Part shown: positions 15,075 through 44,705 of the stretch, one piece after another
Layout of the letters: every line of letters begins with the position of its first letter
Numbering within the stretch: the first letter of the stretch is position 1
Assembly (NCBI GenBank): GCA_017795025.1
Contig: CP051243.1
Location: 2,316,897 to 2,380,896, forward strand
From: Flavobacteriales bacterium
Lineage (GTDB): Bacteria; Bacteroidota; Bacteroidia; Flavobacteriales; Schleiferiaceae
DNA: 64,000 nucleotides
Reading direction: 5' to 3'
Notes under the pieces: generated by a model
Database searches by the model: none
The model's input: the letters and a program-made list of their open reading frames with translations, nothing else
Told to the model about the DNA's origin: nothing
Program-made: the position numbers and the translations under genes

Positions 15075-15093
15075 GGCTGCGCCTTAGGCGGTA

Positions 15094-16424
15094 GTGAGAT
15101 TTGAGATTTGAGATCGGTCGCGGGGCTCCCTGTTAGACTTTATCATTCTTTAGTACTGCTACTTTACTTCCAAAGGATAACCTCTTGTTGCGGAGACCGT
15201 CCCCTTTGCGGGGCGAAGGGGTGGATTCCGACGTAGGTCAGAAAGCGGGGTAGGATAGCCTTTCAGAATCGAAAAATAACCTAGCTTTTCGAATTTGGCG
15301 ACCTGATTATAATCTCCCTAACTTCTCCTTCCTTTCATTTTTGCTTGATCAACCGAGAGCTTTGCTCGAGCTCACGGATTCCATTGAAAATTAAGGTGAC
15401 ATCCGTAACTACCCGCCGCCGCTAAAGCTATGGCGAATTAATCCCGCCGACGTTAAAGCTATGGCAAATACTACCCGCCGCCGCTAAAGCTATGGCGGGC
15501 GAAGAAATCAAGGCTTGGAAGCTCCGCCTCAAAAATGTTTGTAGTCTCCTGCTTCGGTGCACGAGTTAGATTGCTTTTTTGGTAAGCTAATATTGTTCTC
15601 TTTAACAGTTCTTTTCTTTCATTTTTTCTTGATAAACCGAGAGCTCTGCTCGAGCTCACGGATACCATTGAAAATTAAAGCGACATCCGTAAAAACGAAA
15701 CATCCGCCAGAGGCGGACAAGAATAATCAAGGGCCCTGAAAGGCAATTTCGCGAAGCAGCCTGCGGTATGCTCCGCAAACCGCCGACTCTTGGGCTGGGC
15801 CAGCACGATTAAACATTTTACTTGATTCGGACATCATCTCCTGTGGCTTTATCGAGTCCTCCATACTGCCCTGCGAGCGGGCTATTGTCCTCCAGAGGCG
15901 GACAAGCTCCTCAGGTCCCATTCTCCTCCGAACAAGAACGGCCTGCTTGATAGAGTTTTCCCCTACAGTAGTGCGAAAACAGCGTTTTAAGTTCCAAATT
16001 CACCTATGGAAGCATCCGGCCTTTCCCCGGTGATCGTAAGGACCTGAGCAGCTTGTCCGCCTCTGGAGGAAAATTGCGTCCGCCTCGGGCGGAAGAAGCA
16101 TGGAGCGATTAGGGCCGAACAGTTTTGCCGATTGAAGTGAGGCGAAAATCACCTAGGGAAAGGCCTAGCCTTTTCCGCCTGCCAGAGCTTTAGCGGCGGA
16201 CAGGTTGGATACTTTTTACAAACGTATCTGTTATTTATAAGGTGTTTGTGAGCTCGGCCAAGGCCTTCGGTTTGGCAATGAAAAAAGTATCGTAAAAACT
16301 CAGCTAGTCGCCTACTTCCATTTTTTCGTCTACCCTTCCTAGGCCGAATACCTCCTCACAGCGTTTTAAACTTAAATGAAAACCTTTGGAATTCTAGTTC
16401 ATCTATCGTGTAACGTCCAATTAC
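15094..16424 (+). repeat. Composite palindromic repeat, copy A
   Basis: Module order GTGAGATTTGAGATTTGAGATCGGTCGCGG - REP - TTTCATTTTT(T)CTTGAT - CCGAGAGCTCTGCTCGAGCTCACGG - (CGCTAAAGCTATGGCG)n ... AACCTTTGGAATTCTAG is colinear with 18.3-19.65 kb. Confidence 0.9.
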
Positions 16425-16474
16425 CAGTCAACCAGTCAACCAATCAACCAATCCACTAATTTCCCAGCCACCAA

Positions 16475-18319: not shown

Positions 18320-19651
18320 TTCGCCTGCGGCGAACTTAGACCGGTCGCGAGCCTGCGGCAGAACCTAGACCAGTCGCGAGCCTGCGGCAGAAGTGAGATT
18401 TGAGATTTGAGATCGGTCGCGGTGCTCCCTGTGAGACTATATTATCCTTGGTACTATTACCTTTCTTTCAAGGGAAAAGCCAATGTTGCGAAGACCGTCG
18501 CCTTCAAGGGTTTATGGACTGTGAAACGGGGTAGTTGCCATGTTAAAAACAATCTGGTTTTTCGAATATGGTAACCTGATTATGAAATTGAAAATAGATC
18601 GGGCGTTCGTAACCGAGAGCTCTGCTCGAGCTCACGGATTCCAATGAAAATTAAAGCGACATCCGTAACAACGAAATTCGCCGGCGCTAAAGCTATGGCT
18701 AATACAATCCGCCTTCGCTAAAGCTATGGCGAATTAAACCTACCGCGGCTATGGCTATTGCAAATACTACCCGCCGCCGCTAAAGCTATGGCGGGCGAGG
18801 AAATCAAGGCTTGGAAGCTTCGCCTCTAAAATGCTTGTAGCCTCCTGCTTCGGTGCACGAGTTAGATTGCTTTTTTGGTAAGCTAATATTGTTCTCTTTA
18901 ACAGTTCTTTTCTTTCATTTTTTCTTGATAAACCGAGAGCTCTGCTCGAGCTCACGGATACCATTGAAAATTAAAGCGACATCCGTAAAAACGAAACATC
19001 CGTGCCCGCCATAACTGGCTGTGGCAGGCGGGAAAATCAAGGGCCCTGAAAGGCAATTTCACGAAGCAGCCTGCGGCATGCTCCGCAAACCGCCGACTCG
19101 TGGGCTGGGCCAACACGATGAAGCATTTTTCTGGATTGAAATATTTTCTCCAGTGGCCTTATTGAGTCCTGAATGCTGCCCTACGAGCGGACTATTGTCC
19201 TCCAAAGGCGGACAGGCTCCTCAGGCCCCATTCTCCTCCGAATAAGAATTGCATACAGGAAACGAATATCCCCCTTTTTGCAATCTTTAAAGATGGTCTT
19301 AGGTTCCAAAACTTACCTATGGAAGCATTCGGCCTTTCCCCAGTGATCGAGAGGACCTGAGCAGCTTGTCCGCCTCTGGAGGACAATTGCGTCCGCCTTG
19401 GGCGGAAGAAGCATGGAGCGATTAGGGCCGAATAGTTTTGCCGACTAAAAAGAGGCAAAAATCACCTAGGGAAAGGCCTAGCCTTTTTGGATACTTTTTT
19501 GGCAATGAAAAAAGTATCGTAAAAACTCAGCTAGTCGCCTACTTCCATTTTCTTGGCTACCCTTCCTAGGCCGGATACCACCTCACATGATATCAGATTC
19601 AAAAGAATGATTTTAGTAATACAGTACATTTCTCGTGTATCGTCCAATTAC
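18320..19651 (+). repeat. Composite palindromic repeat, copy B
   Basis: Same module order as copy A; 18764-18990 is nearly identical to 15468-15695; preceded by a tandem 29-bp unit AGACC(G/A)GTCGCGAGCCTGCGGCAGAA. Confidence 0.9.
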
Positions 19652-19703
19652 AAGTAAACCAATCTACCGATTCACCAATCCACCAAACATTTACTCCGGA
19701 TGA

Positions 19704-20404: not shown

Positions 20405-20730
20405 TAAATTCTTAAAGCCTCTTGCTTCGGCACACAAGATAAATATCTTTTTTTGTCAGTTGTTATCGTTCTTTTTAAGGGTTCTTTCCTTTCATTTTTT
20501 CTTGATAAAAAACGAAACAAAAAATCAAGGCTTGGAAGCTTCGCCTCTAAAATCTTCGTAGTCTCCTGCTTCGGTGGGCGAGCTCCTGATGTCGCTTCCC
20601 ATCTCAGCTAGTCGTCTACTTCCATTTTTTCGTCTACCCTTCCTAGGCCGTATCACCTCCTCACAGAATTTTGGACTTAAATTGAAACCTTTGGAATTCT
20701 AGTGCATCTATCGTGTATCGTACAATAACA
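20405..20730 (+). repeat. Short, uninterrupted form of the composite repeat, copy C
   Basis: CTTGATAAAAAACGAAACAAAAAATCAAGGCTTGGAAGCTTCGCCTC...CTCAGCTAGTCG...AAACCTTTGGAATTCTAGTGCATCTATCGTG shares both ends with copies A and B but lacks the inserts. Confidence 0.85.
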
Positions 20731-20816
20731 AATCAACCAATCTACCGATACACTAATACACCAATCTACTAATCCACCAGCACCATGCAGCAATCCAGAA
20801 TTCCCTAAATTACACC

Positions 20817-22909: not shown

Positions 22910-23455
22910 TGCCTGCGGCTTCGCCTTCGGCAGAAGTGAGATTTGAGATTTGAGATCGGTCGCGGGGCTCCCTGTGAGACTCTATTATCCTTGGTACTAT
23001 TATCCTTCTTTCAATGGATAATATCATGTTGCGGAGACAGTCCCCTTCGCGGGGCGAAGGGGTGGTTTGGCCTTCAAGGCCAAAGCGGGGTAGTTTTAAC
23101 ATGTTAAATTCGAAGAACAATGTTATCGTTCGAATTTGGTAACCTGATTTCTGACTCCTCAACAACTCTTTCCTTTCATTTTTTCTTGATAAAAAACGAA
23201 ACAAAAAATCAATTGAGCTGGAAGGCAATTACTCTAAGGCTCGATGCCTTAGAGTACCACAGAGTCTCAGGCCAGACCAGCCTGAGGAAATTCTTGATTT
23301 AAGTTGTTTTATCTCGACCTCTTAAGAGTTAGGTTCTTGATACTGCCTTTCGACCTGTTATTGCTGCCCAGCTCAAGGGTCCTCCGAACTTAGCATTCTG
23401 TATTCAGATGAAAACCTTTGGAAATCTAGTGCATCTATCGTGTATTGTTCAATTA
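22910..23455 (+). repeat. Composite palindromic repeat, copy D
   Basis: Starts GCCTGCGGC...AGAAGTGAGATTTGAGATTTGAGATCGGTCGC, contains a REP and CTTGATAAAAAACGAAACAAAAAATCAA, ends AAAACCTTTGGAAATCTAGTGCATCTATCGTG. Confidence 0.85.
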
Positions 23456-23475
23456 CTGGTTAACCATTCAACTAA

Positions 23476-23524
23476 TTCACCAATCCACCAATCCACCAAT
23501 TCACCAATCCACCAATTCACCAAT
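23476..23524 (+). repeat. Octamer tandem repeat (CACCAAT[C/T])n
   Basis: About six consecutive copies; degenerate versions at ~16425-16470, 18250-18305, 19660-19690, 20735-20780, 24165-24210 and 43040-43075. Confidence 0.85.
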
Positions 23525-23527
23525 GCC

Positions 23528-23551
23528 AAAAAAAAGAGGCCCTCAGGCCTC
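23528..23551 (-). terminator. Intrinsic terminator for the SRPBCC gene
   Basis: GAGGCC/GGCCTC stem with an 8-A run on the + strand (U-tract on -). Confidence 0.7.
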
Positions 23552-23574
23552 TCTCAATTAAATATGTACAGGAA

Positions 23575-24111
23575 CTACTTCTCCACGATGTCTTTCAACA
23601 TCCCCAAGCCCTCTTGGAAGGAAGGACCCATGGCCTCTTCGGCGGTCATGAAGAGGTTGATGAGGTTCATCGGGTAATCGAATTCGCTTTCCATACGCCA
23701 GGTCACCTTGGTGCCCGAACCGGATTCTTCCAATTTAATAATGGCCATTCCGGTTGATTCCTGCGGACGGCTAAAATCCAATCGGGTTTCTAGCAAGTAA
23801 GGTGCGCCTACTTTGGTAATGGTTTGACAACCGGCCCCTACTTCGGGGTGCTGACTGTCCCAACAATTTTTAGCGCCCACCGTTCCGGGAGCCCCTTCAA
23901 AGGTTTGCTCCAATTCAGGATCCTTCTTGGTCCAAGGACTCCAGGCGTCCATTTTCTTTAGAGTATTGGTTTCATTCCATACCTGCGTAACCGGCGCATT
24001 AATCACCAAGCTCTCTTCGTGCGAGAAATCTTTGTCTACAAACAAGGCAGTAACCAATGGAATACCAATCAGAATCACCAGAATGATAAGGATAATTTTT
24101 AGTGCTTTCAT
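23575..24111 (-). CDS. SRPBCC (polyketide cyclase/START-like) family protein
   Basis: N-terminal TM, INAP..QVW, W.PW...DP, G.VGA...W, GTKVTW. Confidence 0.85.
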   Translation of the reverse strand: MKALKIILIILVILIGIPLVTALFVDKDFSHEESLVINAPVTQVWNETNTLKKMDAWSPWTKKDPELEQTFEGAPGTVGAKNCWDSQHPEVGAGCQTITKVGAPYLLETRLDFSRPQESTGMAIIKLEESGSGTKVTWRMESEFDYPMNLINLFMTAEEAMGPSFQEGLGMLKDIVEK

Positions 24112-24283
24112 GTTTTAGAAATTAGTTGATGAGGAAAGCAATTTAGGGAATTTTTGGATTGGGGGATTGGTGGTTTGGGAAAATGGAAATTGGTGGAGTG
24201 GTGGAGTGGTGAGGTTACAGGAACCTAAGCAAGCAATAGTCAAGAAAAGAATATCCTTGTTATATTTGAGGAAAGCCCCCTGA

Positions 24284-25252
24284 ATGAATCTTTTTGAATA
24301 TCTGCAAGAGCGGATGTCCATGTCCCATATCTACCAACCGGTGATGATTCGCACTTTGCTGCGGAAAGGTGGTCGTGCCCATAAAGACGAAATCGCCCAA
24401 GAGATTCTTTCTTACGACCGCTCGCAAATCGAATATTACGCTATTCGGGTTAATAATATGGTCGGTAGGGTTTTGCGAAAAAATAAAGTGGTGCTAAAGG
24501 AAAAGGATGACTATCAACTCCTTGACTTTAATCGCTACTCGGCCGAAGAACTTACCGAGCTAGAACGCTTATGCACGGAGAAAATATCATCTTTCTTGGC
24601 AAAGCGAGATTCCATTTTTGAGCATCGCAATCACAGTCGTAAAGCCATTTCGGGTAGTATTCGTTATGACGTTTTAAAGCGCGCTAAAAACCGCTGTGAG
24701 CTCTGCGGGATTCCAGCCGAACAACGCGCCCTAGAAGTCGACCATATTGTTCCTAAAAGTTTAGGTGGTGAAGATGCGATACATAACTACCAGGCCCTTT
24801 GCTATAAGTGCAATGCCAATAAAGGGAACCGCGATCAAACCGATTTTAGAGCGATAGGCAAGCGCTATGAATTACGCCAAGAAAACTGCCTGTTCTGTAA
24901 GCAAGAAAGCTTTAGCCCCATCGCGGAAAACAATTTAGCCTTTGCCATTTACGATGCCTATCCCGTTAGTGAGGGGCACTGCCTCATTATTCCCAAAAGG
25001 CATTCCAAAGATTGGTTTGAATTAGACCAAGCTGAGCTGAATGCCCTAAACGACCTCAGCCAAAAAATGAGGACTAAACTTTTAGAAAAAGACCGGAGCA
25101 TTAGCGGTTTCAATATTGGCGCTAATGCCGGCGAAAGCGCTGGACAAACCATTTTTCATACGCATGTACACCTTATCCCCAGAAGAGATGGAGATGTGGA
25201 GAACCCGAGAGGTGGGGTGAGGCATAGTGTGATGGGGAGGGGATTTTATTAA
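24284..25252 (+). CDS. HNH endonuclease-HIT hydrolase fusion protein
   Basis: HNH: RCELCG...EVDHIVPKSLGG.D..HNYQALCYKCN; HIT: CLFC...GHCLIIPKRH...HTHVHLIPR; TATATTTG promoter element at 24261-24268. Confidence 0.9.
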   Translation: MNLFEYLQERMSMSHIYQPVMIRTLLRKGGRAHKDEIAQEILSYDRSQIEYYAIRVNNMVGRVLRKNKVVLKEKDDYQLLDFNRYSAEELTELERLCTEKISSFLAKRDSIFEHRNHSRKAISGSIRYDVLKRAKNRCELCGIPAEQRALEVDHIVPKSLGGEDAIHNYQALCYKCNANKGNRDQTDFRAIGKRYELRQENCLFCKQESFSPIAENNLAFAIYDAYPVSEGHCLIIPKRHSKDWFELDQAELNALNDLSQKMRTKLLEKDRSISGFNIGANAGESAGQTIFHTHVHLIPRRDGDVENPRGGVRHSVMGRGFY

Positions 25253-25305
25253 GTATTTGATTATATTTTTGAGTTGGCACCAATATAAAAGCAAGAACTG
25301 AATAG

Positions 25306-26154
25306 ATGAGCATATTCTTTGGATTTAGTGACGAATGCGGTACCTATAAAAAAGATAAGGGCAAAAAGCATTTAAAGGTACATCCTCATTATATCCGCAG
25401 TACCCTATTAATCAAAGCAGAAGAATGGAAACTTTTAAAAAAGGAGTTTAACTTACTAAAGGATAAGTTCGGATTACCAATTGAAAGAGAAATAAAGTGG
25501 GCTTATCTGTGGTCTTTAAGAAATTATCAAAAGAACGGACAAAAAATTCCTAAAAAGAAGGACTTCAAATTTTTAGAGAATTATGACTATCACGAACTAA
25601 TCGATTTTGTTGAGCAATGTTTAAGTCTTTTACATCAAATAGATTACACAAAAATTATTATCACCCACACGGACAATACAAGTTGCCCAAGAATAGACGA
25701 TAAGAATATTCTAAAAATGCATCTTCAAGAACATATGCAGAGAGTTGAGATGCAAATTCAAACTCGGACTAAGGAAAACTTAGCTGTTCTATTTTTTGAC
25801 CCTGTAAGCGAAAGTACTGACAAACACTTAAGAGATATATACTTCGAACTATTCAATTCTGGTGATTTCATAGACTCATATAAACACATCAAAGACAGTT
25901 TGAATATTGAACACTCTCATCAAAGTGTTGGAATTCAAATTGCAGATTATGTATCTGGAACTTTTTCAGCAATTTTAAAGGGACAAGGAAATTCGAACTA
26001 TGATCGGGGAAAGAGAATGTTCTATGATCATGTTCATCCATATTTAAGGAAATACAACGGAACTATTTGGGGTGTTGGAATAAGAGAAGTTCCATCTGAT
26101 ATGACTTACAGAAGAAAACTAGCAACAGAAATGAATAAGGAACTAAACAAATAA
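25306..26154 (+). CDS. DUF3800-family (RNase H-like fold) protein, carried as a putative gene cassette
   Basis: FSDECG N-terminal motif and GIQIADYVSG (QxAD) motif; visibly AT-rich. Confidence 0.75.
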   Translation: MSIFFGFSDECGTYKKDKGKKHLKVHPHYIRSTLLIKAEEWKLLKKEFNLLKDKFGLPIEREIKWAYLWSLRNYQKNGQKIPKKKDFKFLENYDYHELIDFVEQCLSLLHQIDYTKIIITHTDNTSCPRIDDKNILKMHLQEHMQRVEMQIQTRTKENLAVLFFDPVSESTDKHLRDIYFELFNSGDFIDSYKHIKDSLNIEHSHQSVGIQIADYVSGTFSAILKGQGNSNYDRGKRMFYDHVHPYLRKYNGTIWGVGIREVPSDMTYRRKLATEMNKELNK

Positions 26155-26159
26155 AATAC

Positions 26160-26294
26160 TGGTGCGAACATCGGTTATAGCAAATGCGGGCTTTGTGCTT
26201 AAAAATGAAGAAATTACAACTAAATAAAGTTACGGTAGGCAGACAAGAATGCGGTTTCAAAACCCCGCACTTGCCACAGCTAGGGCCGTTGTGG
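26160..26294 (+). mobile_element. attC-like cassette recombination site (~135 bp imperfect hairpin)
   Basis: TGGTGCGAAC 5 bp after the stop; inner arms GTTATAGCAAATGCGGG / CCCGCACTTGCCACAGC; ends CCGTTGTGG just before the next gene. Confidence 0.6.
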
Positions 26295-26314
26295 TTAAGA
26301 ATAAATAAAAAAAT

Positions 26315-27385
26315 ATGGCAGAAAATAATGACATTGAAATTGAAGAAGTAATTGAAGAAGGCGAAGTATATCAAACCTTTGACATAGCAACGTATCCATC
26401 TGACTTTACCTTAAAAGGTATAGTTGAAATGTGGAATAGTAATGATATTACAATTCCAGATTTTCAAAGGGAATTTGTTTGGTCAATAAAACAAGCATCT
26501 CTTCTGATAGAATCTTTTTTATTGGGTCTACCAGTCCCTCCGGTTTTCTTTTATATAGATGAGGAAAACTCAAATCTTGTTATTGACGGTCAACAAAGAA
26601 TTTTAAGTACTGTCTATTTCTTCAATGGATACTTTGGGGGAGAAAGTAAAAAAGGTAGAAAACAGGTATTTAGATTAACCGGACTAAATGAACAAAGTCC
26701 ATATTTTAAGAAAGCGTATGAAGATTTGAGTGACTCAGATAGACGAAAACTTGACACCTCAGTTCTGAGAGCAATAAACATTCGACAATTATCACCAACT
26801 GGTGAAAGCACTAGTATGTATCACATTTTTGAAAGATTGAATACAGGTGGTACACCGTTAAAGTCTCAGGAGATTAGAAACGTAGTATTTAGGGGTGAGT
26901 TTGTGAATGTCCTTCGAGAACTAAACAGAGATGAAAATTGGAGGACTGTTCTTGGTGCAAAAAATGTTAATAAACACCAGACAGATGTCGAACTTATTCT
27001 TAGACTTTTTGCTCTTCATACAAGACTTTCAGAATATGAAAAACCAATGAAAGAATTCTTAAATCTTTCAATGAAAAAAAATCAAACAGGTGACACCAAA
27101 GCTGTTAGAGATTTTTCAGAAAAGTTTCTTGCAGCCTGCAAGATAATTGTTTTACAAATAGGAGAAAAGCCATTTCATATACGAACCAGATTAAGTTCCT
27201 CAACCCTTGATGCGGTCCTTGTAAATCTAATGCAGAATTTAAACAAAATTCCAACTGATTTTGCAGAAAGGTACAATCAAATGATTAAGTCCAATGAGCT
27301 TGAGGAGCTTACAACCATCGGAACAACCGACCCAACAACAGTAAGGAACAGATTCAAATTTGTTAAACAAAACTTATTCGGATAG
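26315..27385 (+). CDS. DUF262 (ParB/Srx-like, GmrSD N-terminal) domain protein
   Basis: IPDFQREFVW, SFLLGLPVPP, VIDGQQR and IFERLNTGG motifs. Confidence 0.9.
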   Translation: MAENNDIEIEEVIEEGEVYQTFDIATYPSDFTLKGIVEMWNSNDITIPDFQREFVWSIKQASLLIESFLLGLPVPPVFFYIDEENSNLVIDGQQRILSTVYFFNGYFGGESKKGRKQVFRLTGLNEQSPYFKKAYEDLSDSDRRKLDTSVLRAINIRQLSPTGESTSMYHIFERLNTGGTPLKSQEIRNVVFRGEFVNVLRELNRDENWRTVLGAKNVNKHQTDVELILRLFALHTRLSEYEKPMKEFLNLSMKKNQTGDTKAVRDFSEKFLAACKIIVLQIGEKPFHIRTRLSSSTLDAVLVNLMQNLNKIPTDFAERYNQMIKSNELEELTTIGTTDPTTVRNRFKFVKQNLFG

Positions 27386-27892
27386 ATGGCTTATAGTACG
27401 CATTTTACTATAGCTGACGACATGATAACACATTTGAATTCAATAGTCGGTGGAACTACTGATCCATTCATGAGTTCTAGATATGTTGGCTTTGTCTCGG
27501 TCAGTGCTGTAACTGTATATGAGTTAGCTTTAAAAGAAATTTTTGTTGAGTTTGCAAAGAAAAAACATAACGTATTTGGCACTTATACAAAAAGCCATTT
27601 TGATAGGATTAACGGAAGAATAAAAACTAGCCAAATAAAAGAAGACTATGTAAAAAAATTCGGGAATAAATACTTAAGGCGCTACCAAAAAAAAATGCAA
27701 GAGGCAGAGCGTCATTTTCTCCGAACACACGGTAAAAGCGTACTCTCTGCATACAATAACCTTATTACGTGGCGCAATGACTTTGCTCATGAAGGACATA
27801 TCCCAAGCACAGTTACTTTTAATGAAGTTGTCACTTCATATACTTTAGGAAAAGAGGTTATTAGATGTGTCGCAGAAACAATGAAAAGATAG
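27386..27892 (+). CDS. HEPN-domain putative RNase (RiboL-PSP/MAE_28990-like)
   Basis: WRNDFAHEG = Rx4H HEPN catalytic motif; abuts the DUF262 stop codon (TAG-ATG). Confidence 0.8.
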   Translation: MAYSTHFTIADDMITHLNSIVGGTTDPFMSSRYVGFVSVSAVTVYELALKEIFVEFAKKKHNVFGTYTKSHFDRINGRIKTSQIKEDYVKKFGNKYLRRYQKKMQEAERHFLRTHGKSVLSAYNNLITWRNDFAHEGHIPSTVTFNEVVTSYTLGKEVIRCVAETMKR

Positions 27893-28114
27893 AACTACCA
27901 ACAAGAACATCTATACACGATAACTTTTGGGGAATTGACCATAGTTACACCGCCGTGTAGTATACTGAATAAGCTGATCAGACTATTAAAGCAAAAGGTA
28001 TTGAAAATACCCAAATACATCTTAGAAAAACAATGAGAGCTACATTGTTCTATATCTGACATATTAAAAAACGCAATACTTAACTGCTGAATAAATAACT
28101 AAATCAAAAAATTC

Positions 28115-30169
28115 ATGAATCCTAATAATAAAAATCAATTATTTAGATTATCGGCAGTTCTATACGCAGACAACAATTACCTTGTATCAAGCAGAACTAC
28201 TCTTAGAAAAATCATTGAAACTGCACTTTTCGCTATGGAGCGAGATTCCGTGAGCATTCATGATTTGATTGACTTTATATTTAATAATTATAACCTACAA
28301 ATTGCTGAAGTAGAACTTGAAGAAGTTATCCTATCAAAAAAACAGGATTCTTTTTTAGTCAAAACTACTGAAAACGGTTATGTCTTAAGTATTACAGAAA
28401 AACGAAAGATACAAATACAGTCCAAAATTGATGAAAATACCATTGAATATTACATAGACCTTTTCATTAGTGATAATAATATTCAGTTTTCTAGCACCGA
28501 GCTAAAGGAGCTAATATATCGTTTCCTTTATGACATATTATCAAGCAATATTGAGAGTTTTAAAAAGCTCATCGATAAAAATAGCTCCGTTGAAGCCCTG
28601 ATCAATGTAGATTCCCATAACTATTCACTAGAGGAAAGAGAAGCAATAAATAATTTTTTAAAATGGGATAATGAAGGTAAAAATAAATCAGTATTTGACA
28701 TTGCAAGCTTTGCAATCGAATACTGCCTTATTTCTAATCACTCCAAGCAAGGTCTTGAACTTAAAAATTTAAAAAACAAAGTTTTTTACCTTGACACTAA
28801 CGTAATTTTTAGAGCACTTGGTATTAATGGCGAAGAAAGGAAAAAACGTTCTCTAACCTTCCTGAAACGCTTTCAAGAAACCAACACAAAACTCGTTATT
28901 TCAAAGTATACAGACAAAGAATTCGTTGCTACAATTGATTACTACATTAATCGCCTTGGAAACAAACCGTTTAAAAATGATGTGAACCCAAGCCTTTTCA
29001 ATCACCCCTATTTTTCCAAATTAAAAGATATTTATAATTACTATTACCTATGGCGGATAGGTAAACAGAACCATTCGCTGGAGCTTTTCAAAGCCGAAGT
29101 TATAGCTAGATATAAATTGTTTACATCTAGTATGAGAATAGATGTCAATTACAAAGACAGTCTCAAAGAGGATGAAAACGAAATTTCAGAAACCATACTC
29201 GATTACACGTCTTCGATAAATACTCATAAGTCATCTGATTCGAGTTCAGCAAATTATAATGGATTTGAGTTTGACGCTAAGAATGTCTTGCTAATTGAGA
29301 AACTAAGAGACTCTAAAAACCACAGCATTTTTGATACTAAGTATTTTTTCCTTTCAACAGATCAATCTTTAAGGAGGTGGGATTTTCAAAGAGGAAATAA
29401 AACTCCTTTGGTAATTATGCCAAGCGAATGGATGAGTTTACTACTCAGGTACCAAACACGCACAACAGATGATTTTAAAAGCTTTGTTAGTTTTATAAAC
29501 TTACCAATTCCAGAGAAGCAAATAAGTAGTGAAAACATACACAATGTTTTAGCGGGTATTTCAGAGGTAACATCAAGTTATGAGCAACAATCGTATATCG
29601 TTGAGCAATTGGTCTCACAAGGATTTGATAAAATAATGCGCAGAACCAATGATTCTGATGAACTTTTCGACATAACTGTGGAGTCTTCCGAAAGTATATT
29701 GGAAAAGCGACTTAAAGATTTAGAAAAAAAGCAGGAAGATTTAGCTCAAAAAAGTAACCGAAGAATTCAAAAACTCGAAGAGCACAACGAAACTAAGGAA
29801 TCAATTATAGGTCAGAAAGAGAGCGAGATTGAAAGGCTCGAAAAGGAAAATTATGCTCTTCATGAAGAAAGGGAAATCAGGAAGTTCCAGAAGCCAGCAT
29901 TGAGATATTATATTCCATTGGCAATTATACTTTTAGTGGTAATGCTTTTATGCTTTACGTTTCAAACGGCCGATTGGAATTTCATTAAGCATCTAATTGA
30001 TTTCATCGATAAGGAGCCAAGTCAGACCAAACAATGGATTTATCGTATTGGAGTAAGCCTTTTTATTACTGTTATTATCTCTGGTCTCATAAAGTCTTCT
30101 TACGGCAGATTGGCGAAACATAAAGTTGAAGACTACAAAGACAAGATTAGAGCACGGTATGAAAAGTAG
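28115..30169 (+). CDS. PIN-like nuclease with C-terminal coiled coil and two TM helices
   Basis: FYLDTNVIF, a later E (KEFV), D (FDAK) and FLSTD acidic set; heptad-rich segment; hydrophobic helices YYIPLAIILLVVMLLCF and IGVSLFITVIISGLI. Confidence 0.65.
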   Translation: MNPNNKNQLFRLSAVLYADNNYLVSSRTTLRKIIETALFAMERDSVSIHDLIDFIFNNYNLQIAEVELEEVILSKKQDSFLVKTTENGYVLSITEKRKIQIQSKIDENTIEYYIDLFISDNNIQFSSTELKELIYRFLYDILSSNIESFKKLIDKNSSVEALINVDSHNYSLEEREAINNFLKWDNEGKNKSVFDIASFAIEYCLISNHSKQGLELKNLKNKVFYLDTNVIFRALGINGEERKKRSLTFLKRFQETNTKLVISKYTDKEFVATIDYYINRLGNKPFKNDVNPSLFNHPYFSKLKDIYNYYYLWRIGKQNHSLELFKAEVIARYKLFTSSMRIDVNYKDSLKEDENEISETILDYTSSINTHKSSDSSSANYNGFEFDAKNVLLIEKLRDSKNHSIFDTKYFFLSTDQSLRRWDFQRGNKTPLVIMPSEWMSLLLRYQTRTTDDFKSFVSFINLPIPEKQISSENIHNVLAGISEVTSSYEQQSYIVEQLVSQGFDKIMRRTNDSDELFDITVESSESILEKRLKDLEKKQEDLAQKSNRRIQKLEEHNETKESIIGQKESEIERLEKENYALHEEREIRKFQKPALRYYIPLAIILLVVMLLCFTFQTADWNFIKHLIDFIDKEPSQTKQWIYRIGVSLFITVIISGLIKSSYGRLAKHKVEDYKDKIRARYEK

Positions 30170-30472
30170 CCAAATCCTTTCCATCCATGCTCATTGGCAA
30201 GTCGCTCATAGCAGCCTTATAAGCTAAAACTCGTAAAATAGTATTGTTGCCCAACACAACAGAAAAGGAAAAAGCATGGTTTACAAGATTAAGGATAGGC
30301 AAAAGCGGATAATTCTATGTTAAAACGTGTAATCTTAGATTAAAGATTGCGAAAGAACCGAAGTCTTTTCTTCAGCACCAATCGATATGGTTTATATAGA
30401 TTTACTCGAAAGTTTGAAAGAAGCTCAACTCTAAGCATCAATAATGGGCTAAAGGAAGTATTTTTGATCTTA

Positions 30473-31684
30473 ATGATTGAGAAATACTCTAAACTTAAAT
30501 TTCAAGATAGAAAACTTGGATTCACTACGGAGGATGCAAGCTTCACCCATTACTTACATTCTTACGGTACTACGGAGGCAAAGTACTTTGAAAGGAAAGC
30601 AACTCCAATACTTGAGGCATTAACCTCTGAATATCGACAGGTTAAGCTTCCTATTGAATTCGACGTTCCTTTGCCTCCGCCTGAAGAACCGCAGTTCTCA
30701 TTTATTGACTTGTTTGCTGGAATTGGTGGTTTTAGAATAGCTTTCCAAGAGCTAAATGGTAAATGTGTCTTTTCATCAGAATGGGACAAGTTTTCTCAAA
30801 AAACCTATGAAGCAAACTTTGGTGAAGTGCCTTTTGGTGACATCACTAAAATCAATGAAAAGGAAATTCCAGAACATGATATTTTGGTTGCTGGGTTTCC
30901 ATGCCAGCCGTTTTCTATTGCAGGAGTATCAAAGAAAAATAGTTTGGGTCGAGCCCACGGTTTTAAGGACGAAACTCAAGGCACCCTATTTTTTGACATT
31001 AAGCGAATAATCAAAGAGAAACGTCCAAAGGCATTTCTTTTAGAGAATGTAAAAAACCTAGTATCCCATGATAAAGGGAATACTTTTAAGGTAATCCATA
31101 AAACTCTTAAAAAACTACGTTACAATATTCACTTTCAAGTTTTGGATGGAAAGTATTTTGTGCCTCAACATCGTGAAAGGATTGTAATCGTTGGGTTTGA
31201 TATGGAACGATATGGTACAAACGATCGATTTCAATTTCCTGAAATGCCGGATCAAACTTTGGCCATTGAAGAAATTTTAGAACCCAATCCCGATCCAAAG
31301 TATACTTTATCAGACAAACTCTGGAAATACCTTCAAGACTACTCAGCAAAACACAAAGCTAAAGGGAATGGCTTCGGTTTTGGGTTAGTTCAGCTTGATG
31401 GGATAGCAAGAACTTTAAGTGCTCGATATTATAAAGATGGATCAGAGGTCTTGATTCCGCAGGATGGACAGAATCCAAGAAGACTAACTCCTAGAGAGTG
31501 TGCTAGGCTTCAAGGGTTCCCTGACAAATTTGAAATTCCAGTTTCAGATACACAGGCATACAAGCAATTTGGGAATTCCGTAGTTAGCCCTCTAATGAAG
31601 TCGGTTGGATTTAATATTGTTAAAGAATTAGCCAAATTAGATGAGCATATTAGAGAAAGCCATACAATCAGCGCAACAATCTGA
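30473..31684 (+). CDS. dcm: C5-cytosine DNA methyltransferase, Dcm/M.EcoRII-like
   Basis: [41 protein letters not shown] and [11 protein letters not shown] 30473 preferred over the TTG start at 30347. Confidence 0.95.
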
Positions 31685-32810
31685 AATTTCCTTTAGTAAA
31701 TTTATAAAACCGAACGACACTGGTTCCACTGGTGGTCATCAAGCTGGTTTCCACATACCTAAGAATTCTTGGCCATTGTTTTTTGAATCACCTGGAAAAA
31801 AGGGAGAAAACAAGGACAGGTATGTTACGATTCGCTGGCATGATGATTTTGAAACCAACAGCAGGTTTATCTATTATGGTGTTGGTACTAGAAACGAATA
31901 CCGCCTAACAAGGTTTGGTAGAGGTTTTCCATTTTTAACAGATGATAATGTTGGTGATCTACTTGTCATAGTAAAAAAGTCCTCAGACTTTTTTGAAGGG
32001 TTTGTATTAAGTAGTGACGAGGATATTGAAGACTTTTTTACTTCCTTAAATATCTCATCAACAGAGACAAATGGAATTATACCAAAGCAAACCTCACTGT
32101 CGGCCGAAGCCATACTGCTAAAGTGCTTTATGGCTTATATACAGTCTCTTCGAATTGATTTCCCAACCACGATCGACCTTGCAAATAATGCAAGGGACTG
32201 TTATACCAAAGCCTATGGCATCACTCCAAACGTCGTCAAAAGAAACCCTGACCAAGAGCTTCTAAGTTGGATTGAAGCTGAATATGGGCTTTTTAAGACT
32301 ATTGAAAATGACCGTTATTCCGAGTTAATCCAATCCCCTTTCGAATCAGTTGAAGCACTAGTAAAAACTGCTAACACCATTCTGAATCGAAGAAAAAGTC
32401 GAGCCGGAAAATCCCTTGAACATCACTTAGAAGAAATATTCAAAATTTCACAATTGACTTTTCAAACTCAAATAACCACCGAGAATAACAAAAAACCAGA
32501 TTTCCTTTTTCCGAACATCGAAGCGTATAAGGACCCCAATTTTAATATTGACAAGTTGTTTGTACTGGCATCAAAAACTACCTGCAAGGATAGATGGAGG
32601 CAAATACTAAACGAAGCAGATCGCATCAGAACAAAGCATCTCTTCACCCTTCAGCAGGGAATTTCAAAGAATCAGCTAGATGAAATGAATAAATATGGGG
32701 TCCAACTTGTTGTGCCAAGGATGTATTTATCAAGTTTTCCTGCCGAGCATAGGGAAAACATAATGACTTTGAAACAATTCATAAGTCATGTGAACGCCGT
32801 TCAAGCCTAA
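31641..32810 (+). CDS. Type IIE restriction endonuclease, EcoRII-like
   Basis: N-terminal effector domain ([17 protein letters not shown]) and catalytic domain ([29 protein letters not shown]); overlaps the MTase by 44 bp. Confidence 0.9.
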
Positions 32811-32885
32811 ATATTAGTCGGGCAGCCTAGTTTTATAAATCCATTCCGTTTCCTACTAGCCTTCCTGCACTACTCTAGCACCCCC

Positions 32886-43033: not shown

Positions 43034-43172
43034 GGGTTTGGTGTTTGGTGATAGGTGGATTGTTGGATTGGGTTTTGTGGGATTGCTTCAATGTGATGTT
43101 TGCTTCAACGCAGGGAACGCAGAGAATATAGAGTTTCGCAGAGGCTGTTCCTTTTGAGCACAATATCAGCTA

Positions 43173-43387
43173 TAGGAGACCTCCCCTTCAAGGGTTGAAG
43201 GGGTGGCGCAGCCGGGGTAGTTGCTTCTCTAGTTCCTTAAGGCTAGGAAAGACATCTTAATCCAATCCTTATTTATTTTCTCGAAACAGGGAAGTTAAGC
43301 CTACCCCGTATTACAACCCGTAATGCAATGAAGGGACTGGCTTCCGACATCCATCGCAATTCACCCCTTCGCCCCGCGAAGGAAAGG
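43173..43387 (+). repeat. Inverted REP doublet (REPIN-like)
   Basis: CCCCTTCAAGGG...CGGGGTAG and CTACCCCG...CACCCCTTCGCCCCGCGAAGG flank a spacer shared with 19704-19888. Confidence 0.8.
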
Positions 43388-43467
43388 TGTAAGTCCCTCT
43401 AAAAATCCAAGAAAATAAAAGTGTGTAACTTTAGACTGTTGACCATATCCAATATAGCTTAGATCCG

Positions 43468-44016
43468 ATGAGAGGAATAATTAGTGCTTCCAATTATTTT
43501 TATCTCTTAATTACTATGACATCAAATTTGTTACTAATTGGTAATATTAAGGGACAAGATTTATTCAAGTGTGAAGTAGAGGAAATTCAGAAATTTGATT
43601 TCAGCATTAAGTCTTCTAATTGTAATTTTTACTACAATCACCTGACTAATTCTTACGATTCTCTATCTCTCGATTTTGGAAGAACCTTATCAGATTTTTA
43701 TATTGAGCTTTATACTTATGAAAGCTTAGGTTTTTGTGAGTATATGGTTTATCTTATTGATTCGGTAATTGATTCAACGGGCTATATTTTGGTGCATTAT
43801 GCTAGATTGAATTTAGAGGGAAATATAGAAGGACCAATACAGGGTTATGATGCGTTTGGTGACATCATGTACAACGGATATTTTGAGGGTGATCAGAACC
43901 GAGGAACGGTAGTTTATTATTGGACGATTAATCCTGGTGAAGGCAAAATATATAGGCCTATACAAATAGTTACATACGAGAATTATTTAGAAGTAAATGT
44001 GAAGTCATTTTTTTAA
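43468..44016 (+). CDS. AT-rich hypothetical protein, possibly with MORN-variant repeats
   Basis: 182-aa ORF; IEGPIQGYDAFGDIMYNGYFEG resembles a MORN-variant unit; followed by a terminator. Confidence 0.5.
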   Translation: MRGIISASNYFYLLITMTSNLLLIGNIKGQDLFKCEVEEIQKFDFSIKSSNCNFYYNHLTNSYDSLSLDFGRTLSDFYIELYTYESLGFCEYMVYLIDSVIDSTGYILVHYARLNLEGNIEGPIQGYDAFGDIMYNGYFEGDQNRGTVVYYWTINPGEGKIYRPIQIVTYENYLEVNVKSFF

Positions 44017-44084
44017 AAGGAATTTTAAGAACATAATTTCAGTATAGTGAATACATAAATCACATGTTCTAAATCTGTTTAATT

Positions 44085-44107
44085 GTCGCCAATATTGGCG
44101 ACTTTTT
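44085..44107 (+). terminator. Intrinsic terminator (perfect 18-bp palindrome + T-run)
   Basis: GTCGCCAATATTGGCGAC followed by TTTTT. Confidence 0.65.
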
Positions 44108-44204
44108 AACACAAACCAACCTTAGTAAAATGATGCATTTTTTGATAAATTGCCAATCATTAATCGGGTTGTTTCGGAAAATCTATTGTGTAAATATGTT
44201 CAAA

Positions 44205-44700
44205 AGTCTGGCCAGAGACTCTGTTGTACTCTAAGGTGCCAAGCCTTAGAGTAATTGCCTTTTACCTCAATTGATTATTCTCGCCCGCCAAAGCTCTAGC
44301 GGCGGCATTAATTCGCCATAGCTTTAGCGAAGGCGAATTTCGTTGTTACCAACGCCCTATCTATTTTCAATTGAGTTCGTGAGCTCGAGCAAAGCTCTCG
44401 GTTGATCAAAGAAAAATGAAAGACAATAAATGTTGAGGAGCCTTTAATCAGGTTACCATATTCGAAAAACCAGGTTGTATTTCATATTTGAAAAGTTAAC
44501 CCTACCCCACTTTCCGACCTACATCGGAAACCACCCCTTCGCCCGCGAAGGGGACGATCTCCGCAACAGAAGTTTTTCTATTGGAAGAGAATAGGTACTA
44601 CTAGAGAGCATATAGTCTAACAGGGAGCTTACGACCGCTCTCAAATCTCAGATCTCACTTCTGCCGCAGGCTCGCGACTGGTCTGGGGCGAGCCTACAGC
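44205..44700 (-). repeat. Composite palindromic repeat, copy E (inverted)
   Basis: The reverse complement reads AGACCAGTCGCGAGCCTGCGGCAGAAGTGAGATCTGAGATTTGAG...REP...CCGAGAGCTTTGCTCGAGCTCACG...CGCTAAAGCTATGGCG...GGCAATTACTCTAAGGCT, matching copies A, B and D. Confidence 0.9.
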
Positions 44701-44705
44701 TCGCC

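What the first reader, a model, noticed from the sequence alone, without database searches (positions are those of the whole stretch)
25273..26294. Integron-type gene cassette signature in a Bacteroidota, with no integrase in the window
The DUF3800 gene starts 33 bp after GTTGGCACCA (25273-25282) and is followed 5 bp past its stop by TGGTGCGAAC (26160-26169), whose reverse complement GTTCGCACCA matches at 9/10. This end complementarity is what an excised circular cassette would need to rebuild its attC outer stem. The rest of the site has inner arms GTTATAGCAAATGCGGG / CCCGCACTTGCCACAGC that differ only by transitions (tolerated in a single-strand fold), a variable AT-rich loop, and a terminal CC-GTT-GTGG directly before the promoterless-looking DUF262 gene. 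The cores deviate from canonical RYYYAAC/GTTRRRY. Integrons are considered rare in this phylum, so this may be a divergent cassette system that delivers defence genes to secondary chromosomal sites.
Basis: partly seen in the sequence, partly recalled or inferred. Interest (0 to 1): 0.8.

Follow-up and report, generated by a model that had tools for sequence, protein, structure and literature searches.

The report
Lone integron gene cassette in Bacteroidota
The DUF3800 gene and the 130-base hairpin site after it form one genuine integron-type mobile gene cassette sitting alone in a Bacteroidota chromosome, and its relatives lead to cassette arrays in Flavobacterium headed by an unusual integrase-like enzyme.

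Summary
Window 25274-26288 (1,015 bp) is one integron-type gene cassette. It holds a promoterless DUF3800 (RNase H-like) ORF and an attC site (26160-26297).

The 9/10 end match and the fold energies are not significant alone. Comparative data are decisive:
- A covariance model built from 23 attC sites of other cassette arrays, without the window, hits only this site in 64 kb (50.6 bits, E 8.6e-9).
- A 91%-identical copy elsewhere loses similarity exactly at the upstream G|TT.
- In 36 related cassettes the first 7 variable bases complement the cassette's own R'' at 6.4/7, against 2.8/7 for random pairs. The window scores 6/7.
- Mismatches in the arms are mainly bottom-strand G·T (52 versus 11), as in known attC sites.

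The window holds no second attC and no integrase, so this is an orphan cassette. It lies in a low-GC defence island of a Bacteroidota genome with type IX secretion domains.

Its left junction resembles (20/26) a conserved attI-like site. In four Flavobacterium-type contexts that site follows a ~580-aa IntI-like recombinase lacking the IntI-specific domain and heads same-class attC arrays. This is a possible second integron platform lineage, not proven.

The parts
25250..25275 (+). Left junction, an attI-like sequence (TAAGTATTTGATTATATTTTTGA|GTT) ending at the crossover G|TT, directly after the HNH-HIT stop codon.
   Evidence: It matches the conserved site found about 45 nt after the stop of the ~580-aa recombinase in L173 at 20/26. 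This is the best of 1,838 GTT-ending sites in the window. About 1e-4 of sites in shuffles of the island reach that score.
25274..26288 (+). The gene cassette itself (1,015 bp), from the TT of the upstream G|TT to the G of the downstream G|TT.
   Evidence: Nucleotide identity to the independent copy L081 is 91% (834/914) from GTT onward, but 7/26 in the left flank. Public runs X1 and X2 carry only 25319-26292 of window:23500-28500.
25273..25282 (+). Cassette 5' core G|TTGGCACCA. This would be the R' half of the circular cassette's attC.
   Evidence: It is complementary to its own R'' at 6 of 7 variable positions. The family mean is 6.39/7 for 36 cassettes, against 2.85/7 for all-versus-all pairs.
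25306..26154 (+). DUF3800 ORF (282 aa). It has no room for a promoter of its own, with only 23 nt between the core and the ATG.
   Evidence: Pfam PF12686, E 5.3e-11. There were 190 homologues, the closest mostly labelled Bacteroidota. Invariant D9-E10 and Q211..D214 motifs are present. The RNase H-like fold is taken from the literature (PMC7736814, PMC13594972).
26160..26297 (+). The whole attC recombination site: R'' - L'' - variable loop - L' - R'.
   Evidence: Full-length match to model R1 at 50.6 bits, E 8.6e-9, and the only significant hit in the window.
26160..26169 (+). R'' (TGGTGCGAAC) with the conserved AAC.
26174..26190 (+). L'' arm (GTTATAGCAAATGCGGG).
   Evidence: It pairs with L'. 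In the family alignment 14 of 15 predicted pairs show compensatory changes. It contains the A of the A·C position that is conserved in 23 of 23 sites.
26191..26263 (+). Variable terminal loop of the attC.
   Evidence: It aligns to the unpaired central part of model R1. In run X1 this part varies among copies.
26264..26280 (+). L' arm (CCCGCACTTGCCACAGC).
   Evidence: On the bottom strand, 3 of the 4 mismatches with L'' become G·T wobbles.
26288..26297 (+). R' core G|TTGTGGTTA. The G belongs to the cassette and the TT onward to the DNA downstream.
   Evidence: It complements the same site's R'' at only 1/7, as expected when the two halves come from different partners.
24284..25252 (+). Context: the upstream HNH-HIT gene (GC 0.45, like the genome). 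It is the probable source of read-through transcription.
   Evidence: Pfam HNH plus HIT.
26315..32810 (+). Context: the rest of the low-GC defence island. It holds DUF262/NsnA-like plus HEPN, a 684-aa unknown, and Dcm plus EcoRII. These genes are not shown to be cassettes.
   Evidence: Pfam and PADLOC results. GC is 0.31-0.39 against 0.45-0.50 in the flanks. No attC was found there.

Best explanation
Window 25274-26288 is a single integron-type gene cassette. It consists of a promoterless DUF3800 (RNase H-like, defence-associated) gene followed by its attC recombination site.

How such a unit works, from established integron biology:
- The bottom strand of attC folds into a hairpin. R'' pairs with R' to form the R box, and L'' pairs with L' to form the L box.
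- A tyrosine recombinase binds the folded strand and cuts between A and C of the bottom-strand AAC. On the top strand this is G|TT.
- Excision gives a circle in which the cassette's first bases (TTGGCACCA) come to lie next to its last G. They then pair with R'' (TGGTGCGAA), rebuilding the site.
- Insertion occurs at the G|TT of an attI or attC site.

In the window the cassette sits alone. On its left is an attI-like sequence just after the HNH-HIT gene. On its right is the DUF262/HEPN defence operon. It is probably expressed by read-through from upstream.

Shown here:
- the boundaries of the cassette;
- membership of the site in a large, covarying attC class;
- the bottom-strand bias of its mismatches;
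- carriage of the same cassette in other contexts and arrays.

Inferred:
- that a recombinase encoded elsewhere in the genome, or in a former host, put it there;
- that it can still move.
For: - Model R1 was built without the window from 23 attC sites. It gives one full-length hit at 26160-26297(+), 50.6 bits, E 8.6e-9.
- The stem of that class is supported by covariation. Fourteen of 15 pairs have compensatory changes. 82% of cells are paired against 57% in shuffles, with 0 of 500 shuffles as high. Slid controls give 33-39%.
- R1 hits in DUF3800-bearing loci number 54 of 54 on the gene's strand, in 0.60 Mb. Unrelated control loci give 4 hits in 1.10 Mb.
- Chain rule: a cassette's start complements its own R'' at 6.39/7 (n=36). 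The R''/R' of one site complement at 3.31/7 and random pairs at 2.85/7. The window scores 6/7 and 1/7.
- A 95%-identical protein copy (L081) shares 91% DNA identity from the GTT onward and 27% before it.
- Non-Watson-Crick cells in the stem are top-strand A·C (bottom G·T) 52 times, against 11 of the reverse type. One A·C position is present in 23 of 23 sites and in the window. Known attC sites show the same direction of bias (PMC5027507).
- Only the bottom strand's minimum-energy DNA fold forms the long stem.
- In run X1 the stretch 26167-26288 has depth 88 against about 4 for the gene, on at least 5 contigs with different flanks. The flanking HNH-HIT and DUF262 genes are absent from that run.
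- DUF3800 cassettes occur in arrays of 5-9 attC sites (L097, L106, L116) and beside a true IntI. That IntI scores 394.7 bits on TIGR02249, cut-off 265, in L126.
Against: - There is no second attC and no tyrosine recombinase in the 64-kb window.
- Thermodynamic z-scores are unremarkable.
- The stem has no internal extrahelical bases of the classical kind. Instead the R-L spacers are unequal, 4 versus 7 nt here and 1-3 versus 5-6 nt in the class.
- The outer part of the stem and R'' carry several substitutions, so the site may be decaying.
- The standard detectors (IntegronFinder's attC model, HattCI) could not be run.
- No host reads were available to look for circles or empty sites.
Confidence: 0.88

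Rival explanations
1. The spacer after DUF3800 is a structured non-coding RNA that works with the DUF3800 protein. Eleven 'DUF3800-I to XI' RNA motifs have been described near such genes. On this view it is not a DNA recombination site.
For: Weinberg et al. 2017 (PMC5737381) found many unrelated structured motifs next to DUF3800 genes. They noted that their method cannot tell RNA structures from single-stranded DNA structures. The element lies directly downstream of the ORF and would be co-transcribed.
Against: - No Rfam family matches the region, even at E up to 10.
- The same structure class follows unrelated genes (Dcm, TIR-SIR2, kinase, rhodanese, TonB receptor) in arrays.
- Its ends obey the G|TT chain rule.
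- Mismatches favour pairing on the bottom strand, which is antisense to the mRNA.
Confidence: 0.03
2. The end complementarity and the hairpin are chance features, or an ordinary terminator or spacer between two genes of a defence island.
For: - The 10-mer match is within chance expectation for the window.
- Fold z-scores are not significant.
- The scanner score is reached in about 1 of 10 shuffled windows.
Against: - The independent covariance model gives E 8.6e-9.
- The ends are conserved and covary in homologues.
- Similarity to L081 breaks off exactly at G|TT.
- No terminator-like site was called in 26155-26314, and no T-run follows the stem.
Confidence: 0.02
3. The unit is a true cassette by origin but is now a fixed relic. 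It was captured once, its site is decaying, no cognate recombinase remains in the genome, and it no longer moves.
For: - It is a single site with no partner attC on its left, so classical attC x attC excision is impossible.
- There is one mismatch between R'' and the cassette start.
- There are 4 transitions in the 17-bp arms and more in the outer stem.
- Its R1 score of 50.6 bits is low. Typical array members score 83-116 bits.
- DUF3800 copies with clearly eroded ends exist in Pedobacter endophyticus (L095) and in L096.
Against: - The left junction keeps an attI-like sequence that could serve as an excision partner.
- The conserved A·C position and both AAC/GTT triplets are intact.
- The rest of the genome could not be inspected for a recombinase.
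Confidence: 0.45

Closest known systems
Integron gene cassettes with attC sites (for example attCaadA7 of class 1 integrons; the ~125-133-nt VCR sites of Vibrio chromosomal integrons)
   Same: - A promoterless ORF followed by a site with R''-L''-loop-L'-R' order.
- Conserved AAC and GTT triplets, with the crossover at G|TT.
- The cassette start complements its own R''.
- Imperfect arms, with bottom-strand G·T enrichment.
- A length of about 130 nt.
- Arrays of co-oriented cassettes in relatives (features as described in PMC5027507).
   Different: - There are no bulged extrahelical bases inside the L stem. The asymmetry lies instead in unequal R-L spacers.
- The cores are GTTGGCA and GCGAAC rather than GTTRRRY and RYYYAAC.
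- The host is a Bacteroidota, where few integron elements are on record (PMC9024848).
- The window holds no integrase and no array.
CALIN / SALIN elements (clusters of attC sites, or single attC sites, lacking an integron integrase; IntegronFinder terminology)
   Same: An attC-bearing cassette with no integrase within reach. Small arrays without an integrase are also seen in Halpernia sp. GG3 (L093, 3 sites between secA and a ROK gene) and in L116.
   Different: Single sites are normally discarded by IntegronFinder as unreliable. Here the single site is validated by comparative evidence. Its left junction looks like an attI rather than random DNA.
Integrons with the integrase gene co-oriented with the cassettes (recalled from memory for Treponema denticola and relatives; not checked here), and archaeal integrons with attI just downstream of intI (10.1101/2022.02.06.479319)
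   Same: In L089, L173, L174 and L175 the recombinase gene, an attI-like site about 45 nt after its stop codon, and the cassettes all point the same way.
   Different: The ~580-aa recombinase lacks the IntI-specific additional domain that defines IntI. It also carries a ~290-aa N-terminal extension.
DUF3800-associated RNA motifs (Weinberg et al. 2017, PMC5737381)
   Same: A conserved structured element lies immediately beside a DUF3800 gene.
   Different: There is no Rfam match. The structure is shared with unrelated cassettes and is favoured on the antisense (bottom) DNA strand.

Membership tests
Integron attC site / gene cassette | Inverted outer cores R'' and R' carrying the conserved triplets 5'-AAC ... 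GTT-3' (top strand) | tested here: met
   AAC lies at 26167-26169 and GTT at 26288-26290. The triplets are invariant or nearly so in 23 related sites.
Integron attC site / gene cassette | Extended core consensus RYYYAAC / GTTRRRY | tested here: inconclusive
   The window has TGCGAAC and GTTGTGG, and GTTGGCA at the cassette start. These are only partial matches. Related array sites range from canonical GTTAGGC to GTTATGC, GTTGTGC and GTTACCA.
Integron attC site / gene cassette | Imperfect inner inverted repeats L''/L' forming a hairpin, with structure conserved rather than sequence | tested here: met
   The arms are 17-21 nt. Fourteen of 15 predicted pairs in the class show compensatory changes, and 82% of cells are paired against 57% in shuffles. 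The window fits the model at 50.6 bits.
Integron attC site / gene cassette | Crossover at G|TT, so that the cassette's first bases complement its own R'' | tested here: met
   The window scores 6/7 and related cassettes 6.39/7 (n=36), against 2.85/7 at random. Similarity to L081 starts exactly at GTT.
Integron attC site / gene cassette | The bottom strand is the folded, recombined strand (G·T mispairs and stability favour it) | tested here: met
   Bottom-strand G·T cells number 52 against 11 for the top strand. The window has 3 against 1. Only the bottom-strand minimum-energy fold forms the stem, at -15.3 versus -13.4 kcal/mol. The direction agrees with PMC5027507.
Integron attC site / gene cassette | Extrahelical bases on the L'' side of the folded bottom strand | tested here: not met
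   The stem aligns without bulges. Asymmetry is present instead as unequal spacers (4 versus 7 nt) and one conserved mispair. Whether this substitutes for extrahelical bases is unknown.
Integron attC site / gene cassette | Detection by the curated attC models (IntegronFinder attc_4 model, HattCI) | not testable with these tools
A custom model (R1) was used instead.
Integron attC site / gene cassette | Recombination by an integron integrase (excision as a circle, insertion at attI) | not testable with these tools
   This needs an experiment. No reads of the host organism were found to search for circle or empty-site joints.
Complete integron | An intI gene (tyrosine recombinase with the IntI-specific additional domain) adjacent to the cassettes | tested here: not met
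   tblastn with a true IntI, with its specific segment alone, and with the 582-aa recombinase finds nothing in the window. The rest of the genome is unseen.
Complete integron | An array of two or more attC sites | tested here: not met
   There is one site in 64 kb. Arrays exist in relatives.
Flavobacterium-type platform seen here (~580-aa IntI-like recombinase + attI-like site + R1-class attC arrays) | An attC of the R1 class | tested here: met
   The window site scores 50.6 bits. The arrays in L173-L175 score 49-108 bits with the same model.
Flavobacterium-type platform seen here (~580-aa IntI-like recombinase + attI-like site + R1-class attC arrays) | The conserved attI-like sequence ending in ...TATAT(T/A)TAC(T/A)A|GTT at the first cassette | tested here: met
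   The window junction 25250-25275 matches L173 at 20/26, with a rate of about 1e-4 per site. The consensus rests on only 4 contexts.
Flavobacterium-type platform seen here (~580-aa IntI-like recombinase + attI-like site + R1-class attC arrays) | The ~580-aa recombinase gene immediately upstream | tested here: not met
   The upstream gene is HNH-HIT, and there is no recombinase remnant.
DUF3800-associated RNA motifs (Rfam) | A match to one of the curated covariance models | tested here: not met
   There is no hit at the gathering threshold in the window, and none at E up to 10 in 25100-26500 that overlaps the spacer.
Intrinsic terminator | A short GC-rich stem followed by a T-run | tested here: not met
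   No terminator-like site was called in 26155-26314.

The most novel reading that the evidence does not exclude
The attC class to which this cassette belongs may not be serviced by classical IntI. It may be serviced by a conserved ~580-aa Flavobacterium/Bacteroidota tyrosine recombinase.

Properties of that recombinase:
- It is IntI-like. Its best family match is TIGR02249, and it shares the C-terminal KSPLD motif.
- It lacks the IntI-specific additional domain.
- It has a ~290-aa N-terminal extension.
- It is encoded in the same orientation as the cassettes.
- A conserved attI-like site lies about 45 nt after its stop codon.

If so, this is a second lineage of integron platform, one that current integron finders would not report as complete integrons. 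It would explain why Bacteroidota appear nearly integron-free. The window's cassette would be an orphan derived from such a platform, and its left junction would be a remnant attI.
Probability: 0.4. Interest if true: 0.8.

Novelty: new member of a known kind. Interest (0 to 1): 0.6.

Why it matters
- **Reach of integron exchange.** Surveys of complete genomes report almost no integron elements in Bacteroidota. A validated cassette here, together with small integrase-less arrays in Halpernia and attC sites in Aquirufa, Sediminibacterium and Flavobacteriales assemblies, shows that cassette exchange reaches this phylum.
- **Cargo.** The cassettes carry defence-type genes: DUF3800, Dcm with a MutH-like nuclease, TIR-SIR2 and a kinase. 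This fits the recent view of cassette arrays as stores of anti-phage genes.
- **Validating single sites.** Orphan attC sites are usually discarded as noise. This case shows they can be validated by comparative evidence.
- **A candidate new integron type.** The follow-up lead makes a testable claim about what an integron integrase needs. The lead is arrays of up to 15 sites headed by an IntI-like recombinase without the domain held to be essential for integron recombination.

Tried and rejected
- **tRNA-end idea.** GTTCGCACCA looked like a tRNA 3' end and so a possible island att site. ARAGORN finds no tRNA in the window.
- **Rfam.** Nothing at the gathering threshold for the window, and nothing relevant at E up to 10 for 25100-26500.
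- **Thermodynamics.** Fold z-scores are not significant on any strand or chemistry. This is not usable as evidence either way, apart from which strand forms the stem.
- **Second copy in the window.** blastn-short finds none, and neither the scanner nor the model finds another attC. The spacers after HEPN (27893-28114), after the 684-aa gene and after EcoRII were read by eye. The first has a short hairpin (CTATACACG...CGTGTAGTATA) but no GTT core, so it was not called.
- **Empty-site and synteny test through the HNH-HIT gene.** The closest homologues in species-representative genomes are 60% identical or less and are not syntenic. No close relative of the host was found.
- **Exact-protein look-ups.** DUF3800 and SdhA of the window are not on record.
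- **Sequencing runs.** Only two runs share words with 24300-27300, and they hold the cassette alone, not the host. No joints for circles or deletions could therefore be sought.
- **L121 integrase fragment.** It belongs to an IS91-type element and is not an integron integrase.
- **Literature.** Searches for Flavobacterium or Bacteroidota cassette arrays, or for such a recombinase, found no description in the held library. This does not prove that none exists.
Full report
**1. What is in the sequence**

- GTTGGCACCA lies at 25273-25282.
- The DUF3800 ORF runs from 25306 to 26154.
- TGGTGCGAAC lies at 26160-26169.
- The arms are at 26174-26190 and 26264-26280.
- GTTGTGG lies at 26288-26294.
- The DUF262 ATG is at 26315.

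The surrounding genes:
- HNH-HIT, 24284-25252.
- DUF3800.
- A DUF262 protein, which matches PADLOC NsnA at 1.4e-61.
- A RiboL-PSP HEPN protein.
- A 684-aa protein with no family.
- A Dcm methylase and EcoRII.

All are on the + strand. From about 25250 to 32850 GC falls to 0.31-0.39, against 0.45-0.50 on both sides. The host is a Bacteroidota. Three proteins in the window carry type IX secretion C-terminal sorting domains, and the best homologues of the island genes are labelled Bacteroidota.

**2. Is it more than chance?**

Within the window alone, hardly.
- The 10-mer with one mismatch occurs twice, against 3.24 expected.
- Fold z-scores of the spacer lie between -0.6 and -1.15.
- A purpose-written scan looked for AAC...GTT pairs bracketing a stem. 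It ranks this site first (12.5), but shuffled windows reach 12 or more about one time in ten.
- There is no tRNA, no Rfam family and no second copy of the spacer in the window.

**3. Comparative evidence**

Homologues of the DUF3800 protein were located on their contigs. They lie in unrelated neighbourhoods, yet many keep a 'GTTxxxxxxx' 20-45 nt before the ATG and its reverse complement 'xxxxxxxAAC' just after the stop. The changes are compensatory:
- GTTGGCACCA / TGGTGCCAAC (L081)
- GTTAGCACCAATAT / ATATTGGTGCTAAC (L089)
- GTTAGCCGC / GCGGCTAAC (L106)
- GTTATGGCAC / GTGCCATAAC (L117, L121)
- GTTACCAGT / ACTGGTAAC (L113)
- GTTAGGCGAA / TTCGCCTAAC (L131, canonical cores)

The closest copy is L081, with 95% protein identity. 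It is 91% identical in DNA from the GTT onward (834/914) and 7/26 identical before it. That places the left boundary exactly at G|TT.

Several loci hold arrays of such sites: L116 with 9, L106 with 7, L097 with 5 and L117 with 4 or more. In these arrays every cassette's first bases complement its own R''. Quantified over 36 cassettes:
- Complementarity to the cassette's own R'' is 6.39 of 7 variable positions, with 22 perfect.
- The R''/R' of one site complement at 3.31/7.
- All-against-all pairs complement at 2.85/7.
- The window gives 6/7 and 1/7.

This is the signature expected if units are cut and joined at G|TT.

**4. A model of the site**

Twenty-three sites from these arrays, none from the window, were aligned (A2).
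- RNAalifold predicts a 15-pair stem, 14 pairs of which have compensatory changes.
- With the stem extended and the AAC/GTT pairs added, 82.4% of cells pair. Shuffles give 57.4% (0 of 500 as high) and slid partners give 33-39%.
- Covariance model R1, run with filters off, finds one site in the window: 26160-26297 on the + strand, full length, 50.6 bits, E 8.6e-9. The next best hit scores 9.5 bits at E 4.5.
- In 0.60 Mb of DUF3800-bearing loci it finds 54 sites, all on the strand of the DUF3800 gene.
- In 1.10 Mb of unrelated control loci it finds 4 sites. These are in Flavobacteriales, Aquirufa and Sediminibacterium assemblies.

**5. Which strand folds**

The non-Watson-Crick cells of the stem were sorted by type.
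- 52 are A·C on the top strand, which is G·T on the bottom strand.
- 11 are G·T on the top strand.
- One A·C position is present in all 23 sites and in the window.

In the window three of the four arm mismatches become G·T on the bottom strand. Only the bottom strand's minimum-energy DNA fold forms the long stem. Known attC sites show the same bias, with 1.24 against 0.39 G:T per site (PMC5027507). This argues for a single-stranded DNA site on the bottom strand and against an mRNA structure.

**6. Independent sign of mobility and copy number**

Two public runs share words with 24300-27300. Laid on 23500-28500, they cover only 25319-26292, at about 90-97% likeness. Nothing of HNH-HIT or DUF262 is covered. 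In run X1 the stretch 26167-26288 has depth 88 against about 4 for the gene, on at least five contigs with different flanks. The attC is therefore a multi-copy repeat family elsewhere, with its limits at the AAC and at the G of G|TT.

**7. Integrases**

The window has no tyrosine recombinase.

Among related loci, L126 carries a bona fide integron integrase. It scores 394.7 bits on TIGR02249, above the cut-off of 265, and is colinear with the model. It lies divergent from a DUF3800 cassette. Its family is the common environmental IntI.

Separately, L089 has a 582-aa recombinase co-oriented with the cassettes. Fifty nucleotides after its stop comes ...TTACGGGTATATACTA|GTTGATAACC. This is the start of a cassette whose R'' is GGTTATCAAC. 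Features of this protein:
- It is closest to TIGR02249 but scores below the cut-off (201.7 bits), in two stretches.
- It aligns with VchIntIA on both sides of the IntI-specific region with 26 residues where IntIA has 68. It is colinear with XerA.
- An alignment with true IntIs shows it lacks about 40 residues. The missing stretch includes the ...RKYPNA..W.WFW.FPS... segment. It shares the C-terminal KSPLD motif.
- It belongs to a large, conserved ~580-aa family, which includes Flavobacterium silvisoli, Flavobacterium sp. LMO8 and Flavobacteria bacterium BAL38.

In all three further contexts fetched (L173, L174, L175), the same arrangement recurs:
- AAAAAAGTT..ATA....TATAT(T/A)TAC(T/A)A|GTT lies about 45 nt after the stop codon.
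- It is followed on the same strand by cassettes and R1-class attC sites: 15 in L175, 2 in L174, and 1 at the contig end in L173.
- The first cassette obeys the chain rule.

The window's left junction (25250-25275) matches this attI-like site at 20/26. That is the best of 1,838 GTT-ending sites in the window, with a rate of about 1e-4 per site in shuffles of the island.

Cury et al. 2016 concluded that recombinases lacking the IntI-specific domain near attC sites are not integron integrases. They based this on cases with fewer than three sites (PMC4889954). The arrangement seen here is stronger than those cases but remains correlative.

**8. Interpretation**

The DUF3800 unit is a genuine integron-type cassette, present as an orphan. 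It has a single attC and no integrase in reach.

Its cores are within the natural spread of the class, so the 'divergent cores' are not special. Departures from textbook attC sites are:
- the absence of bulged extrahelical bases;
- the unequal R-L spacers.

The neighbouring island genes are not demonstrably cassettes. Whether the site is still active cannot be decided. Its model score is low for the class (50.6 bits against 83-116), and eroded copies exist elsewhere (L095, L096).

DUF3800 is described in the literature as RNase H-like and linked to retrons, CRISPR loci and mobile elements (PMC7736814, PMC13594972). It has no PADLOC match. Other cassettes in the related arrays encode Dcm with a MutH-like nuclease, TIR-SIR2 and a kinase. 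This is in line with cassette arrays acting as stores of defence genes (10.1101/2024.07.02.601686).

**9. Novelty**

Integron cassettes and integrase-less attC clusters are known. Integrons are recorded in Bacteroidota at very low prevalence (PMC9024848, PMC8618304, 10.1101/2022.02.06.479319). The window feature is therefore a new member of a known kind.

The lead worth following is the ~580-aa IntI-like recombinase at the head of same-class arrays. I found no description of it in the held literature.

Noticed in passing
window 15081-16460, 18380-19687, 20406-20765, 22923-23492; inverted copy 43160-44704: Large repeated intergenic blocks, 0.4-1.4 kb and 75-98% alike, flank several genes. They contain 31-nt tandem units (15410-15497, 18679-18792). 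Runs of an 8-nt unit ACCAATCC lie just upstream of genes, including 24122-24219 before HNH-HIT. They have no Rfam match and no attC-model hit.
   Followed up: partly
L089 4691-6439; L173, L174 10001-11743; L175 10001-11749: A conserved ~580-aa IntI-like tyrosine recombinase of Flavobacterium lacks the IntI-specific domain and has a ~290-aa N-terminal extension. In all four contexts it is followed, about 45 nt after its stop, by a conserved attI-like site and by co-oriented attC cassette arrays of up to 15 sites.
   Followed up: partly
L175 12494-13444, 16100-16735, 21123-21749: The array holds several nearly identical ORF-less cassettes of about 320 bp, each bounded by attC sites of one subtype (R'' TGCAGTTAAC, R' GTTAACTGCA).
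   Followed up: no
L093 9838-12986 (Halpernia sp. GG3, GCA_052976925.1): A three-site attC cluster without an integrase lies between secA and a ROK-family gene in an isolate genome. The two outer attC sites are about 95% identical. The inner cassettes are DUF3800 and a Dcm methylase with a 250-aa partner.
   Followed up: partly
L005 2590-2726 (Flavobacteriales assembly); also L003, L028, L065: In L005 an attC of the same class lies on the opposite strand and ends 30 nt after the stop of an HNH-HIT homologue. In several other genomes HNH-HIT homologues sit next to Dcm methylases. HNH-HIT may therefore be the nuclease of a restriction-modification-like pair and may itself be cassette-borne.
   Followed up: no
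L088 7451-8000 and 10066-10715 (GCA_022708105.1): Two copies of a ~300-bp repeat end in GAGTTACGGTTATAAAC(G/A)A just before a cassette start. The end resembles the L089 attI-like site. Each copy precedes a different cassette group, with no recombinase within 8 kb.
   Followed up: no
window 27893-27970: After the HEPN gene there is a short hairpin (CTATACACG ... CGTGTAGTATA) preceded by ...CAAGAAC, but without a GTT core. It could be a decayed attC or an ordinary terminator-like hairpin.
   Followed up: partly
window 31641-31684: The Dcm methylase and EcoRII endonuclease ORFs overlap by 44 nt, as expected for a compact EcoRII-type restriction-modification pair at the right end of the low-GC island.
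   Followed up: no
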